Source: the human T2T-CHM13v2.0 reference genome, Homo sapiens
DNA length: 64,000 bases
Assembly (NCBI GenBank): GCA_009914755.4
Contig: CP068257.2
Coordinates: forward strand, 6,304,001-6,368,000
Direction: 5' to 3'
Of the stretch, positions 1 through 4,900 are shown in pieces; within the stretch, counting starts at the first letter, position 1; each line of letters begins with the position of its first letter. A program made the translations under genes and the position numbers. The notes under the pieces are model-generated. The model worked only from the letters and a program-made list of their open reading frames with translations. It was not told the DNA's origin and ran no database searches.

Positions 1-330
1 GGAAGGGTGGAAGACAGACATGGTGCCTGCGGCCGGGGGTTGTTGGGGTGGGGGTGGAGGGTGTGGTGATGGTGGTGGTGGGGCCGGAGAGACGAAGAGG
101 AAGGGGGCGAGGGGGAAGGGGTGAGGGGTGTGCATTTGAGGGGCTGGCTCTCCGGACCTCTCCAGGAATCCCACGGGAACTGGAAGCCGCTCTCTGGGCT
201 CCCATGCACCTTCAGCAGGGAGAAACCCGCCTGGGAGGGTGGAGTGGAGAGTGGAACTGAACCTCCGTGGGAGTCTTGAGTGTTCCAGGCCCTCTCTCCG
301 TGTAGGAGGCAGTGCCTGTGGGCCTACAGA
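1..330. repeat. D4Z4-like GC-rich segment, copy A (paralogous to 1395-1700 and 23440-23625; purine-rich GGAGG/GGGTG runs)
   Basis: Direct comparison: 60-300 aligns base-for-base (about 85-90%) with 1430-1700 and 23470-23625 in the same orientation. In the full unit this segment lies 5' of the DUX4-like start on the gene strand. Confidence 0.6.
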
Positions 331-520
331 GGGCGTTGTGACATCACTCTGCACGGATCACCCGGGTTATGTAACTCTTGTCTAGGCTCTGCCTACGGGG
401 GCATTGTGACTTATCTCTGCACTGATCACCCAGAAGATGTGACTCTTGTCTAAGCTCTGCCTAGAGGGACACCCAGGTGATGGGACTCTTGTCTAGGCTC
501 TGTGTATGGGGGCTTTGTGA
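331..520 (+). repeat. beta-satellite / LSau-type 68-bp monomers (about 3 copies), plus orientation
   Basis: Monomers of the form ctgcacNgatcacccNggtNatgtaactcttgtctaggctctgcctacNggggcattgtgacNtatct with period about 68 bp. They match the array consensus at 1950-21262. Confidence 0.6.
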
Positions 521-700
521 CATGTCCCAATGTCCCCGCGATGGCACTCTCGAAACCTTCGGAGGGCACCCTCCCCAGCCCCATCCCCCACCCCCGGAAA
601 ATGTGTCCTCCCCTGGGCTGAGTGGCTAGACCTGCAGTCATTGCACACACCGGCTGACGTGCAAGGGAGCCCCCTGGCCTCTCTGTGCCCTTGTGCATCC
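521..700. other. Inverted copy of a D4Z4-like 3'-flank segment (reverse complement matches 21300-21400 and 21540-21620)
   Basis: The reverse complement of 540-700 (ggatgcacaagggcacagagaggccaggg...ctcagcccaggggaggacacattttccgg) aligns to 21300-21620 on the plus strand. The 21.3-kb copy carries about 160 bp more between the two matching halves. Confidence 0.5.
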
Positions 701-845
701 GTGCTCAGTACAGAAATATGTCACAAAGCCCCTGTAGGCAGAGCCTAAATAAGAGTTACATCTCCTGGGTGGTCAGTGCAGAGATATGTCATAAATCCCT
801 GTGTAGGCAAAGCCTAGAGAATTTTACATCACCTCAGCGATCAGT
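701..845 (-). repeat. beta-satellite monomers (about 2) in inverted orientation relative to the main arrays
   Basis: The reverse complement reads gatctctgcactgatcgctgaggtgatgtaaaattctctaggctttgcctacacagggatttatgacatatctctgcactgaccacccaggagatgtaact, which is canonical monomer structure. Confidence 0.55.
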
Positions 846-1160
846 GCAGAGATCCGGTGACGGCGGTCCGCTTTCGCCTGCCTTCTTGTGGGCTGCGTCT
901 CCGGGCCAGGGCCAAGATTCCCACTGATGCTGCCTCAGCTAGCGTGACCTCTCATTCTGAAACCAAATCTGGACCCTGGGCCGTGGAATGCCGATGGCCT
1001 GGGCCAGCTGTTCTCTGGTGGCGATGCCCGGGTACGGGTTCCGCTCAAAGCAGGCTTGCAGGGCCTCGCTTTGGCTCGGGGTCCAAACAAGTCTCTTTTG
1101 TCGTCCCCTGCCCCAGGCTTCCACGGGGAGGGTGCCGTCCGAAGGTGTTGGGAGGGCCAT
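845..1160 (-). pseudogene. DUX4-like (paralog not determinable): Truncated DUX4-like (double homeobox 4 family) 5' gene fragment: N-terminus plus complete homeodomain 1, then premature stop and a break into satellite
   Basis: The minus ORF 939..1247 translates to ...[73 protein letters not shown]. This is about 90% identical to the human DUX4 N-terminus ([74 protein letters not shown]). The DUX4-equivalent ATG is at about 1160. A TAG replaces the Gln codon after NERSR. Nucleotide alignment to the full copy (22930-23240) ends at about 850, where satellite begins at a GATC. Confidence 0.8.
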
Positions 1161-1293
1161 CGCGGGGAGCCCTGGCCAGAATTTCACGGACAGACACGGG
1201 CAGAGAGAGGCCGGCGGGCTCCCGTGCCCCTCAGCCAGCCTGTGCACTGTGGCAAGTACAGCCAGGAGGCCTGCCCAGACAGCCAGCCAGCGG

Positions 1294-1308
1294 TTCTTAT
1301 AAAGGCCC
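1294..1308 (-). promoter_or_regulatory. TATA-like box (minus-strand tttataag) about 140 bp upstream of the DUX4-like ATG. This is the positional counterpart of the DUX4 TACAA promoter box
   Basis: The plus strand reads cttataaagg at 1296-1305. The same motif sits at the same distance upstream of the second copy (23368-23377). Its role is inferred from position only. Confidence 0.35.
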
Positions 1309-1394
1309 GCAGGCAGGCAGGCTCCACCCCGTCATGAATGGCGGTGAGCCCTGGGACAGCCCGCCCCACCCCGGAAGGGTCCGAGGGCGTCGAG

Positions 1395-1700
1395 GCCTGC
1401 GGCCGGGGGCTGGTGGTGTGGGGGGGAGGGCGTGGTGATGTTGATGGTGGGGCCAGAGAGACGAAGAGGAAGGGGGCGAGGGGGAAGGCGTGAGGGGGGC
1501 GCGTTTCAGGGATTGGCTCTCCGGGCCTCTCCAGGAATCCCGCGGAAACTGGAAGCCTCTCTCTGGGCTCCCACGAATCTTCAGCAGGGAGAAACCGGCC
1601 TGGGAGGGTGGAGGGGAGTGTGGAACTGAACTTCCGTGGTAGTCTTGAGTGTTCCAGGCCCTCTCTCCGTGAAGGAGCCAGTGCCTGTGGGTGTCGCCAT
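1395..1700. repeat. D4Z4-like GC-rich segment, copy B (paralog of 1-330 and 23440-23625)
   Basis: Aligned directly to copy A: ggccgggggctggtggtgtggggg...ggaactgaacttccgtggtagtcttgagtgttccaggccctctctccgtg. Confidence 0.6.
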
Positions 1701-1949
1701 TGCCGGGACAGTCTCACACACGCAGGCGTGTGGCTCTCGTTCATTTCCACGTAGGAGACAAGAGCGAGAGAAGATGCCTCCACAGCGTGAAGGCTTGACG
1801 ATGGATTCCCGTGTGCGGCAACATGGGGAGTCTGCAGGTTGGCCGGTTTGGAAACTGGCAAGGAGTGCAAAGGCACCATGGCGGCCTTCTACCCTTCCCT
1901 GCATGTTTCTGGGTGCCCGCAGACCTCCAGGAGCAAACAGTCAGCATGA

Positions 1950-4900
1950 CACATCTCTGAATTGATCAACAAAGTGATGTAACTCTTGTCAAGGCTCTTC
2001 CTACACGGGAATTCTCAGATATCTCTGCACTGAACACCCAGATGACGGACCCTTGTCTTGGATCTGCCTATGGGGGCATTGTGACATATCTCTGCACTGA
2101 ACACCCAGGTGATGTAACTGTTGTATAAGTTCTGCCTACAGGGGAATTGTGAGAGATCTCGCCACTGATCACCCAAGTCATGTAACTATAGTCTAGGCTT
2201 TGCCTAAAGGGGGCTTTTTGACATACATTTGCACTGATCAACCAGGTGATGTAACTCATCTAAGCTCTGCCTACAGGAGCTTTGTGACATATCTCTGCAC
2301 TGATGACTTAGGTGATGTAACACTTTTATAAGCACTGCCTATAGGGAATTTTGACAAATCTCTGCACTGATCACCTAGGTGATGTAACTCTTGTCTACCC
2401 TCAGCCCAAAGGGGGCATTGCGATATATCTCTGCATTGATCACCCAGGTGTTTCAACTCTTGTCTTGGATCTGCCTACAGGGGTTATTGTGAAATATCTC
2501 CGCACTGATCAACTAGGTGATGTAAGTCTTGTCTAGTCTCTGCCTACAGGGTCGTTTTCACATGTCCCTAAACTGATGACAAAGGTGATGTAGCCCTACT
2601 CTAGGCTCTGCCAACAGGGACGTTTTCACATATCCCTGAACTGATGACAAAGGTGGTGTAACTCTTGCCTAGGCTTTGCCTACAGGGGACATTGTGACAT
2701 ATCTCTGCACTGATCTCCCAGGTGCTGTAACTTTAATATAGGCTCTGGCTACACGGCATTGTGACATATCACCGCACTGATCACCCGGTGATATAACTCT
2801 TGTCTAGGCTCTGCCTACAGGGGGCTTGTGACATATCTCTGCAGTGATCACCCAGGTGATATAACTCTTCTCTAGGATCTGCCTACAGGGTTCTTTGTGA
2901 CATATCCCTGCAATGATCACCCAGGTGATATACCACTTGTCAAGGCTCTGCCTACAGGGGCATTGCATTGTATCATGACACTGATCACCTATGTGATGTA
3001 ACCCTTGTCTAGGCTCTGCCTACAGTGGCATTGTGACATATCTCTGCACTGATCACCCAGGTGATATAACTCTTCTCTAGGATCTTCCTACAGGGTGCTT
3101 TGTGACATATCCCTGCAATGATCACCCAGGTGATGTACCACTTCTCGAGGCTCTGCCTACAGGGACATTGTGATGTATCTCTGCACTGATCACCTAGGTC
3201 ATGTAATTCTTGTCTAGGCTCTGCCTACAGTGGCATTGTGACATATCTCTGCCCTGATCATCCAAGTGATGTAACCCTTGTCTAGGATCTGCCTAAAGGA
3301 ATTATGTGACATAAGTCTGCACTGATCATCCAGGTGATGGGGCTTTTGTCTAGGCTCTGCCTAAGTGGGCATTGTGACATTTTTCTGCACTGATCACTTA
3401 GATGACGGACTCTTGTCTTGGATCTGCCTATGGGGGCATTGGGACATATCTCTGCAATGATCACCCGGGTGATGTAACTGTTGTATAAGCTCTGCCTACA
3501 GGGGAAATGTGAGAGATCTCACCCCTGATCACCCAAGTGATGTAACTATTGTCTAGGCTTTGCCCACAGGGGGCTTTGTGACATACATTTGCACTGATCA
3601 CCCAGGTGATGTAACTCATCTAAGTTCTGCCTACAGGAGCTTTATGACATATCTCTGCACTGATCACTTAGGTGATGTAACACTTTTATAAGCACTGTCT
3701 ACAGGGAATTTTGACAAATCTCTGCACTGATCTCCTAGGTGATGTAACTCTGGTCTAGGGTCTGCCTACAGGGGGAATTTTGAAATATCTCTGCACTGAT
3801 CAACTAGGTGGTGTACCTCTTGTCAAGGCTCTGCCTACAGAGGCGTTTTCACATATCTCTTCACTGATGACAAATGTGATGTAACATTTGCCTAGGCTTT
3901 GCCTACAGGGGACATTGTGACATATATCTGCACTGATCACCCAGGTGATGCAACTCTTGCCTAGGCTTTGCCTACATGGGACATTGTGACATATCTCTGC
4001 ACTGATCACCCAGGTGATGGAACTCTTCTCTATGGTCTGCCTACAGGGGTCATTGTGACATATCTCTGCACTGATCACCCAGGTGATGCAACTCTTCTCT
4101 ATGCTCTGCCTACAGGGGGCATTGTGACATATCTCTGCACTAATCACCAAGGTGATGTAACTCTTTTCTAGTCTCTGCCTACAGAGGGCGTTCTGACATC
4201 ACTCCGCACAGATAACCCGGGTTATGTAACTCTCGTCTAGGCTCTGCCTAGGGGGAAATTGTGACTTATTTCTGCACTGATCACCCAGGAGATATGAGTC
4301 TTGTCTAAGATATGCCTAGAGGGACATTGGGACATATCTCTGCACTGATCGCTGAGGTGATGTAAAACTTGTCTAGGCTTTGCCTACAGTGGAATTTATT
4401 ACATATCTCTGCACTGATCACCCAGGTGATGTAAGTCTTTCCTAGGCTCTGCTTTCAGGGGGTATTGTGAGATATCTCTGCACTGATCACCCAGGTGATG
4501 TAACTCTTGTCTAGGCTCTGCTTACAGGGGCATTTTAACATATCACTTCACTGACTACCGAGATGATGTAACTCTTGTATAGGCTTCGCCGACAGGGGGT
4601 ATTGAGATATACCTCTGCACTGATCACCGAGGTGATGCAACTCTTGTCTGGGATCTGCTTACAGGGGGCATTGTGACATATCTCTGCCCTGATCACCCAG
4701 GTGATGTAACTCTTGTCTAGGCTCTGCCTACTGGAGATATTGTGACATATTTCCGCACTGATCACCGAGGTGATGTTAGTTTTCTCAAGGATATGGCTAC
4801 AGGGACATTGTGATATGTCACTGCACTGATCACACAGCTGATGTAACACTTGTCTAGGTTCTGGATACAGGGGTCTTGTGACACATCTCTGCACTGATCA

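What the first reader, a model, noticed from the sequence alone, without database searches (positions are those of the whole stretch)
1..1950. Rearranged mosaic of D4Z4-like pieces, including a truncated DUX4-like 5' fragment with an intact homeodomain-1 ORF
The first 1.95 kb is a patchwork of D4Z4-like and satellite pieces in mixed orientations. It consists of GC-rich copy A (1-330), 3 satellite monomers, a 180-bp piece of the DUX4 3'-flank in inverted orientation (521-700), 2 satellite monomers inverted (701-845), a DUX4-like 5' fragment (845-1160, minus strand) with its promoter-like region and TATA-like box, a second GC-rich copy (1395-1700) and about 250 bp of unique GC-rich spacer. The HD1 reading frame (ORF 939..1247, 102 aa) is still open and about 90% identical to DUX4, then terminated by TAG in place of a Gln codon and truncated into satellite at a GATC. 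The interleaving of inverted satellite monomers with inverted gene-flank fragments implies at least two breakage and rejoining events, or a small palindromic rearrangement, inside the satellite. A promoter-bearing HD1-only fragment is formally an expressible mini-ORF, though I consider expression unlikely.
Basis: seen in the sequence. Interest (0 to 1): 0.55.

Follow-up and report, generated by a model that had tools for sequence, protein, structure and literature searches.

The report
Broken DUX4-like pseudogene in beta-satellite
The first 1.95 kb of the window is a decayed, locally inverted and deleted piece of the well-known D4Z4-like (LSau) repeat embedded in 68-bp beta-satellite DNA, carrying a truncated DUX4-like pseudogene stub that almost certainly does nothing.

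Summary
In detail: all pieces exist within about 10 bp of the stated coordinates and in the stated orientations. Three corrections apply.

- 851-1946 is not a patchwork. It is one continuous 1.1-kb 5' part of a D4Z4-like/LSau unit, colinear with four independent copies. The "unique spacer" 1691-1946 is the unit's ordinary distal end, and 1946/1947 is a recurrent LSau/beta-satellite boundary.
- 521-703 is a composite: a second DUX ATG-region piece plus two 3'-flank pieces.
- The ORF from its ATG is 73 aa, 65/73 (89%) identical to DUX4, and lacks the last five homeodomain residues.

New points:

- 701-853 is the only minus-oriented beta-satellite in the window. It is the inverted continuation of the local higher-order repeat that stops at 471. 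This indicates a true small inversion with breakpoints in the satellite and at the GATC in the DUX ORF, plus several microhomology-flanked deletions.
- Window 1-28 is yet another inverted LSau piece.
- The TAG stop recurs in other genomic copies.
- No polyadenylation hexamer follows the ORF.

LSau-beta-satellite composites, their inversions and DUX4-like pseudogenes are all described. The verdict is ordinary and of low interest. Junctions could not be checked in independent human assemblies.

The parts
1..28 (+). Short piece of the LSau distal region in DUX-sense orientation, cut by the window start. It is joined at about 25-28 to the antisense copy A.
   Evidence: 26/28 identical to L002 604-631 and L003 857-884 (sense strand), and 24/28 to the reverse complement of window 1870-1897. 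In 300 shuffles the best match was 21, typically 16.
25..322 (-). Copy A: the GC-rich (hhspm3-like) upstream part of a D4Z4-like/LSau unit. It breaks at 322|323 into beta-satellite, about 255 bp short of the canonical distal end.
   Evidence: 90.3% to 1395-1691. 91.9% to L002 1118-821. Base-level alignment.
323..471 (+). Beta-satellite B1, 2.2 monomers. It belongs to the local higher-order repeat.
   Evidence: 94-96% to 11699-11848, 23851-23998, 6981-7130 and 18396-18545.
472..526 (+). Beta-satellite X, a partial monomer of another type. There is a 25-nt discontinuity at 471|472.
   Evidence: 96% to 15240-15291. Alignments.
532..576 (+). Second, inverted copy of the DUX 5'UTR/ATG region (ATG 541-543 plus 11 codons).
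   Evidence: 533-576 is 88.6% identical to the reverse complement of 1125-1168, and 84% to 23240-23197.
577..625 (+). D4Z4-like 3'-flank piece 1, in DUX-sense orientation.
   Evidence: 569-632 matches 21623-21560 (85.9%) and L002 2926-2983. About 180 bp present in all reference copies is deleted at 625|626, flanked by TGG.
626..703 (+). 3'-flank piece 2, the satellite-proximal (pLAM-like) end of the unit. It lacks the last ~50 nt of the flank and the first satellite bases of the canonical boundary (about 100 nt in all).
   Evidence: 623-703 matches 21381-21301 (86.4%) and L002 3167-3247 (91.4%).
704..853 (-). Beta-satellite D, 2.2 monomers. It is the only inverted satellite in the window. Its reverse complement continues the higher-order repeat that stops at 471.
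   Evidence: 88.3% to 18708-18555. In five repeat copies the D-equivalent starts 10 nt after the B1-equivalent. Orientation scan.
851..941 (-). DUX-like sequence downstream of the stop (codons 74 to about 103) up to the breakpoint at GATC 851-854.
   Evidence: Alignment with five paralogues, which continue into homeodomain 2 where the window switches to satellite.
939..1160 (-). 73-codon DUX4-like ORF (homeodomain 1 minus its last five residues) plus the TAG stop.
   Evidence: 65/73 identical to DUX4 (PDB 5zfw, 5z6z). Pfam Homeodomain 1.7e-17 over profile positions 1-54 of 57. Translation.
1161..1394 (-). Promoter/5'UTR-like region with TATAA at 1297-1301 (-141).
   Evidence: 94.9% to L002, 88-91% to other copies. 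TATAA located.
1395..1691 (-). Copy B: the GC-rich upstream part, continuous with the promoter.
1692..1946 (-). The boundary with beta-satellite at 1946|1947 is the canonical one.
   Evidence: 84-93% to L001-L004. L003 has the same LSau/satellite junction.

Best explanation
This is a non-functional, decayed stretch of a beta-satellite/LSau (D4Z4-like) composite array of a primate, human-like genome.

Reconstructed history (inferred):
1. A D4Z4-like unit on the minus strand once lay a few satellite monomers to the right of another unit, whose tail is copy A.
2. A small inversion, or an equivalent fold-back/template-switch event, flipped the block holding the satellite monomers that followed 471 and the adjoining 3' end of the unit. 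One breakpoint lay in the satellite at about 471. The other lay in the DUX ORF at the GATC at 851-854.
3. Most of the flipped gene body was then lost, or was never copied, through at least three microhomology-flanked deletions.

What remains: a 180-bp remnant (ATG piece plus two 3'-flank pieces) followed by the inverted satellite, abutting the intact 1.1-kb 5' part of the unit (851-1946).

The 73-codon HD1 stub is a pseudogene remnant. It has a family-typical TATAA promoter but lacks homeodomain 2, the activation domain and any polyadenylation signal.

Shown directly: the segment identities, orientations and junction positions. Inferred: the order and mechanism of events, and the lack of function.
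For: Family membership:
- 851-1948 is colinear with independent D4Z4-like contigs: L002 91.3%, L004 86.7%, L003 85.4% (running on into satellite), L001 88.9%.
- The LSau/satellite boundary at 1946/1947 is shared with L003.
- The canonical 3' boundary is conserved in window 21263, L002, L003 and L004.

Inversion:
- 701-853 is the only minus-oriented satellite in about 27 kb of satellite.
- Its reverse complement starts where the higher-order repeat continues after B1, with a 10-nt gap in five repeat copies and shared diagnostic variants GATCGCTGAGG and CACAGGGATTTATGAC.
- The 3'-flank pieces are on the opposite strand to 851-1946.

Not a fold-back read artefact:
- The inverted arms are only 80-88% identical.

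Junctions:
- Junctions at 471|472, 576|577, 625|626, 703|704 and 851-854 show 2-4 nt of apparent microhomology.

Pseudogene status:
- TAG at codon 74 and truncation before HD2.
- Pfam match only over profile positions 1-54 of 57.
- None of 13 common poly(A) hexamers occurs in the 940 nt downstream on the sense strand.
- CpG observed/expected is 0.38-0.60, against the CpG/GpC ratio of 0.8 quoted for 4q35 D4Z4 (PMC12376486).
- dN/dS against paralogues is 0.5-0.9 from only 9-31 substitutions.

Literature:
- Beta-satellite composite arrays are interspersed with LSau, and there are more than 200 inversion breakpoints in beta-satellite arrays (10.1101/2021.07.12.452052).
- The LSAU-BETA composite occurs on 16 chromosomes with 80-95% intra-array identity near centromeres (10.1101/2021.07.12.451456).
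- Hundreds of dispersed 3.3-kb repeats carry no or minimal ORFs; dispersed copies carry TATAA where D4Z4 has TACAA; a PAS is needed for stable DUX4 mRNA (PMC12376486).
Against: - A simple two-break inversion does not explain the second copy of the ATG region at 532-576. The ATG lies outside the segment that such an inversion would flip.
- It also does not explain the foreign monomer X at 472-526. Staggered breaks, an inverted duplication, serial template switching or a second donor unit must be added.
- The left edge (1-28) shows a further inverted junction whose partner lies outside the window.
- No independent assembly or read data could be consulted. The junction 26- to 28-mers were absent from the two collections available, junction-spanning ORFs had no full-length homologues, and no exact ORF is on record. 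These collections are not human assemblies, so this is uninformative rather than negative.
- dN/dS below 1 does not strictly exclude residual constraint.
Confidence: 0.82

Rival explanations
1. The block 472-853 was built in one replication-based event (serial microhomology-mediated template switching, FoSTeS/MMBIR type), not by a cut-and-paste inversion followed by deletions. In this model the nascent strand left the template at 471 and copied a 55-nt monomer from elsewhere. It then switched to the opposite strand at the DUX ATG and skipped leftwards along it in four short stretches (45, 49, 78 and 150 nt). Finally it returned to the original strand at the GATC in the ORF.
For: - Five consecutive short segments of 45-150 nt. 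The last four are colinear along the inverted template.
- Each joint has 2-4 nt of apparent microhomology.
- The duplicated ATG region is expected under template switching but not under a simple inversion.
- The inverted copy ends within 10 nt of the point where the plus-strand copy stopped.
Against: - The same end state can arise from an inversion with staggered breaks followed by deletions, since palindrome-like arrangements are unstable.
- The duplicated ATG pieces are only 88.6% identical over 44 nt, and the source sequences have since diverged, so microhomology lengths are uncertain.
- No outgroup or polymorphism data are available.
Confidence: 0.35
2. The mosaic is an assembly artefact: a mis-join or collapsed or chimeric reads in a highly repetitive satellite region.
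For: - Satellite/LSau composites are hard to assemble.
- None of the junctions could be found in any other sequence available here.
- The metagenome contig L003 also shows a satellite strand switch next to its LSau unit, which in a short-read assembly may itself be an artefact.
Against: - The inverted arms are 80-88% identical, not the near-perfect palindrome that chimeric fold-back reads give.
- Segments carry their own private substitutions and deletions.
- The breakpoints are reciprocal in the higher-order repeat.
- Inversions in beta-satellite arrays are documented in a validated telomere-to-telomere assembly (10.1101/2021.07.12.452052).
Confidence: 0.06
3. The promoter-bearing 73-aa HD1-only ORF is an expressed mini-gene, for example a DNA-binding competitor of DUX4 in germline or cleavage-stage embryo.
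For: - Open frame from the DUX4 ATG.
- TATAA at -141 and a promoter 95% identical to another copy.
- The recognition-helix residues WFQNERSR are retained.
- dN/dS is below 1.
Against: - No poly(A) signal within 940 nt.
- The homeodomain lacks its last five residues, and there is no HD2 or activation domain.
- The substitutions R21Q and R22K fall in the N-terminal arm.
- dN/dS rests on only 9-31 changes and includes the paralogues' own lineages.
- The exact ORF is absent from 15 billion predicted proteins.
- The setting is satellite with depleted CpG.
- RNAs from dispersed 3.3-kb repeats are described as having no or minimal ORFs (PMC12376486).
Confidence: 0.02

Closest known systems
LSAU-BETA (LSau / beta-satellite) composite arrays of the human genome (Hoyt et al., 10.1101/2021.07.12.451456; Altemose et al., 10.1101/2021.07.12.452052)
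   Same: - 68-bp beta-satellite interspersed with LSau/D4Z4-like units.
- Copies within the array are 86-92% identical, within the 80-95% reported for arrays in centromere transition regions.
- Strand switches (inversions) occur inside beta-satellite.
   Different: Nothing in kind. This particular 333-bp inverted block with its deletions is simply one local instance. Its chromosomal address could not be determined with the tools available.
D4Z4 / DUX4 at 4q35 with the distal pLAM-beta-satellite end (4qA)
   Same: - Same repeat family.
- Same ATG and homeodomain 1 (89% protein identity).
- A promoter box at about the same distance.
- A unit 3' end that runs into 68-bp satellite, as at 4qA (PMC12376486).
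   Different: - TATAA instead of D4Z4's TACAA.
- The ORF stops at codon 74 and the gene is cut off before homeodomain 2.
- No poly(A) signal.
- Not part of a 3.3-kb tandem array here.
Dispersed 3.3-kb repeat family / DUX4-like pseudogenes on acrocentric short arms and pericentromeres (Lyle et al. 1995 and Beckers et al. 2001, as cited in PMC12376486)
   Same: - Diverged D4Z4 homologues with disrupted ORFs embedded in heterochromatin.
- 109 different HD1-encoding fragments of this family turned up as human contamination in metagenome assemblies. Several end at the same TAG.
   Different: This copy is additionally truncated and juxtaposed to an inverted remnant.

Membership tests
D4Z4-like / LSau 3.3-kb repeat family | DNA homology colinear with other family units across distal part, GC-rich part, promoter and ORF | tested here: met
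   851-1948 aligns end to end with L002 (91.3%), L003, L004 and L001, and with window 22922-23619.
D4Z4-like / LSau 3.3-kb repeat family | Double-homeobox ORF (two homeodomains) | tested here: not met
   Only homeodomain 1 is present, over Pfam PF00046 profile positions 1-54 of 57. Homology ends at 851, before homeodomain 2. The fragment is therefore a truncated member, not a complete unit.
D4Z4-like / LSau 3.3-kb repeat family | Promoter with TATAA/TACAA box about 140-150 nt upstream of the ATG | tested here: met
   TATAA at 1297-1301, 141 nt upstream of the ATG. TATAA in dispersed 3.3-kb copies versus TACAA in D4Z4 is described in PMC12376486.
Beta-satellite (68-bp Sau3A family) | Tandem units of about 68 bp matching the beta-satellite consensus | tested here: met
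   TRF finds period 68 at 322-463, 701-853 and 1947-30841. Consensus scan.
LSAU-BETA composite | LSau units joined to beta-satellite at recurrent boundaries | tested here: met
   The 5' boundary at 1946|1947 is identical to that in L003. The 3' boundary at 21262|21263 is shared with L002, L003 and L004. Junctions at 322, about 527, 703 and 851 are non-canonical.
Functional DUX4 gene | Intact 424-aa ORF with HD1, HD2 and C-terminal activation domain | tested here: not met
   Stop at codon 74 and truncation at about codon 103.
Functional DUX4 gene | Downstream polyadenylation signal (as supplied by pLAM on 4qA) | tested here: not met
   None of 13 poly(A) hexamer variants occurs on the sense strand between the stop and window position 1.
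Functional DUX4 gene | Evidence of transcription or translation | not testable with these tools
   No expression data are accessible. The exact ORF is not among 15 billion predicted proteins, which says little.

The most novel reading that the evidence does not exclude
The HD1-only 73-aa ORF, with its TATAA promoter, is transcribed when satellite heterochromatin is relaxed (germline, cleavage-stage embryo, cancer). It then yields a single-homeodomain peptide that competes with DUX4 at half-sites.
Probability: 0.02. Interest if true: 0.55.

Novelty: already known. Interest (0 to 1): 0.1.

Why it matters
It matters little. The region is a textbook example of how LSau/D4Z4-like units decay and rearrange inside beta-satellite arrays.

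The only modest value is as a base-resolved example of a small satellite inversion. Its breakpoints can be read off because the flipped monomers still carry their higher-order-repeat identity, and its joints all show short apparent microhomology. This fits microhomology-mediated repair or template switching as a source of the many strand switches reported in beta-satellite arrays.

For FSHD or DUX4 biology it adds one more dead DUX4-like copy that could cross-map in short-read or RT-PCR assays.

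Tried and rejected
- Independent confirmation of junctions. Exact 26- to 28-mers across the junctions at 851, 625/626 and about 527 were scanned in JGI metagenome contigs and GTDB genome contigs, with 0 hits. 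These are not human assemblies, so the result is uninformative.
- Exact look-up of 20 ORF variants from 1-1965, including junction-spanning ones and M-start versions of GTG ORFs. None is in the 15-billion-protein collection.
- Homology searches with the two junction-spanning ORFs (530-748 and 685-927). Hits covered at most 54% of the query, and none spans a junction.
- Idea that copies A and B are a local duplication. Rejected: they are no more alike (90.3%) than either is to L002 (about 92%).
- Idea that C+D is simply a flipped intact canonical 3' boundary. Rejected: the last ~50 nt of the flank and the first satellite bases of that boundary (about 100 nt in all) are missing. D also matches the internal higher-order repeat (88%) better than the boundary monomers (82%).
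- Idea that the deletions in C are splice junctions of a retro-copied transcript. Rejected: the deleted stretch at 625|626 begins AT and ends GG and is flanked by a TGG repeat.
- Rfam scan of the whole window: no RNA family.
- dN/dS on 219 nt: too few substitutions to separate neutrality from weak constraint.

Full report
**Context.** The window is GC-poor 68-bp beta-satellite from 1947 to 30841 (TRF, 423 copies). It is interrupted by GC-rich islands at 1-1946 and 21263-23619. From 30.8 kb onward it is ordinary interspersed-repeat DNA with L1 ORF2 fragments. The islands are D4Z4-like (LSau) units with the DUX gene on the minus strand.

**Checking the observation.**
- 25-322 matches 1395-1691, direct, 90.3%.
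- 851-1573 matches 22922-23619, same strand, 86.6%.
- 623-703 and 569-632 match 21381-21301 and 21623-21560 on the opposite strand.
- 701-853 is inverted beta-satellite relative to 322-468.

A consensus scan shows that 701-853 is the only minus-oriented satellite in the whole window. So the orientations were assigned correctly, and the refuting outcome (colinearity with a single unit) does not occur.

**The ORF.** The minus-strand frame reads [73 protein letters not shown].
- The ATG is at 1158-1160 and the TAG at 939-941.
- The 102-aa figure comes from a mechanical GTG start.
- Against solved DUX4 chains it is 65/73 identical. The differences are S9G, A13V, R16W, R21Q, R22K, R35Q, R51Q and E60R.
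- Pfam Homeodomain matches profile positions 1-54 of 57, so the last five homeodomain residues (QLRQH in DUX4) are lost.
- Five paralogues aligned codon by codon show CAG or CAA where this copy has TAG. The exception is L003, which also has TAG.
- At least seven other 73-aa ORFs from independent contigs end at the same codon. The stop is therefore recurrent or inherited within the family.
- Homology ends at GGATC|TCTGCAC (851-854), where full-length copies continue into homeodomain 2.

**Independent copies.** A protein search returned 109 different HD1-encoding fragments. Nearly all came from human-contaminated metagenome assemblies, and the best was 93% identical. Four contigs were fetched.
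- L002, L003, L004 and L001 align colinearly with 851-1948.
- L003 has the very same LSau/satellite junction as 1946|1947.
- The 3' boundary of the unit at 21262|21263 is likewise shared by L002, L003 and L004.
- Similarity is mosaic. The ORF is closest to L001 (96.3%) and the promoter to L002 (94.9%), which suggests exchange among paralogues.

**Anatomy of the rearranged part.**
- Copy A breaks at 322|323, where all other copies continue TGTCGCC....
- B1 (323-471) is 94-96% identical to four places in the array.
- The reverse complement of D (853 down to 704) starts, after a 10-nt gap, exactly where those repeat copies continue. It shares their diagnostic variants.
- One breakpoint therefore lies in the satellite at about 471. 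D is the flipped continuation of B1, and its proximal end is now fused to the DUX ORF at 851.
- Four short pieces lie between 471 and D:
  - X (472-526), a monomer of another type, 96% to 15240-15291.
  - A second DUX ATG region (532-576) in sense orientation.
  - 3'-flank piece 1 (577-625).
  - 3'-flank piece 2 (626-703).
- Relative to every reference copy, about 180 bp is missing at 625|626, flanked by TGG. About 100 nt is missing at 703|704, which shares GTG.
- Window 1-28 matches the sense strand of the LSau distal region, 26/28 against a shuffle maximum of 21. This is a further inverted joint, cut by the window edge.

**Mechanism (inference).**
- A two-break inversion explains the D|E junction and the sense orientation of the flank pieces.
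- It does not explain the duplicated ATG piece or X. The alternatives are an inversion with staggered breaks or an inverted duplication followed by deletions, or a one-step serial template switch.
- All joints show 2-4 nt of apparent microhomology.
- The inverted arms are only 80-88% identical. This argues against a chimeric-read palindrome artefact and for an old event.

**Function (inference).**
- TATAA lies at -141.
- None of 13 poly(A) hexamers occurs on the sense strand in the 940 nt downstream.
- Homeodomain 2 and the activation domain are absent.
- CpG observed/expected is 0.38-0.60.
- dN/dS of 0.5-0.9 rests on 9-31 changes.
- The review PMC12376486 states three relevant points. DUX4 mRNA needs the pLAM poly(A) signal. 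Dispersed 3.3-kb copies carry TATAA where D4Z4 has TACAA. [quoted passage not shown]
- I conclude the stub is inert.

**Comparison with what is known.** Beta-satellite composite arrays interspersed with LSau, and more than 200 inversion breakpoints in beta-satellite arrays, are described in 10.1101/2021.07.12.452052. The LSAU-BETA composite on 16 chromosomes, with 80-95% intra-array identity near centromeres, is described in 10.1101/2021.07.12.451456. This locus is an instance of that known kind.

**Limits.** No human assemblies or reads were available.
- Junction k-mers were absent from the two searchable collections.
- Junction-spanning ORFs have no full-length homologues.
- No exact ORF is on record.

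The assembly-artefact rival is therefore disfavoured only by internal evidence.

Noticed in passing
window 1-28: The first 28 bases match the sense strand of the LSau distal region (26/28 to L002 and L003), whereas 25-322 is antisense. This implies another inverted junction whose other side lies outside the window. The octamer GGAAGGGT is common to both sources.
   Followed up: partly
window 21263-23619: A nearly full-length D4Z4-like unit on the minus strand. HD1 is interrupted by TGA at codon 37 (ACFERN becomes A*FEWN). The HD2 frame and the C-terminal ...[22 protein letters not shown] frame are open in pieces. The distal 5' end is truncated at 23619, about 330 bp short of the canonical boundary. 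The 3' boundary with satellite is canonical.
   Followed up: partly
window 939-941; L003; P0013, P0023, P0054, P0060, P0077, P0078, P0085: The stop at DUX codon 74 (CAG to TAG) recurs in L003 and in at least seven other otherwise diverged 73-aa ORFs. It is either ancestral to a subfamily of D4Z4-like copies or spread by gene conversion.
   Followed up: partly
window 851-1946 versus L001 and L002: Mosaic relatedness. The HD1 ORF is closest to L001 (96.3%) while the promoter is closest to L002 (94.9%). The post-stop 90 nt is only 80-88% identical to any copy. This suggests gene conversion among dispersed paralogues.
   Followed up: no
window 1947-30841: The beta-satellite has a higher-order structure. 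Blocks recur at about 2.8 kb spacing (3307, 6140, 8943; and 4177, 6981), with irregular spacing further on. The B1-type dimer recurs at 4177, 6981, 11699, 18396 and 23851.
   Followed up: partly
window 21263-21400 and equivalents in L002-L004: The satellite-proximal 130 nt of the unit's 3' flank is a paralogue of the promoter/5'UTR region just upstream of the ATG (about 80% identical). It is absent from the internal unit-to-unit junction of the tandem-type contig L004. From memory it resembles the pLAM / 4qA distal end, where the DUX4 poly(A) signal lies in a degenerate satellite monomer. Here that position reads ATATGTCACAATG, with no signal.
   Followed up: partly
L003 1-810: This human-gut-metagenome contig also switches beta-satellite orientation at about 540, next to its LSau unit. 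It is either a second example of a satellite inversion beside LSau or a short-read assembly fold-back.
   Followed up: no
P0097, P0108: DUX4-like homeodomain fragments are deposited as 'hypothetical protein [Bacillus thuringiensis]' and 'homeobox domain-containing protein [Leptospira borgpetersenii]'. This is most likely human DNA contamination in bacterial assemblies.
   Followed up: no
window 30841-64000: The satellite ends at 30841. It is followed by AT-rich interspersed repeats, including L1 ORF2 fragments (31688-32641, 33203-33700), a (TA)58 tract at 46149-46265 and a 38-nt poly(A) at 55044-55081. There are no Rfam matches anywhere in the window.
   Followed up: no
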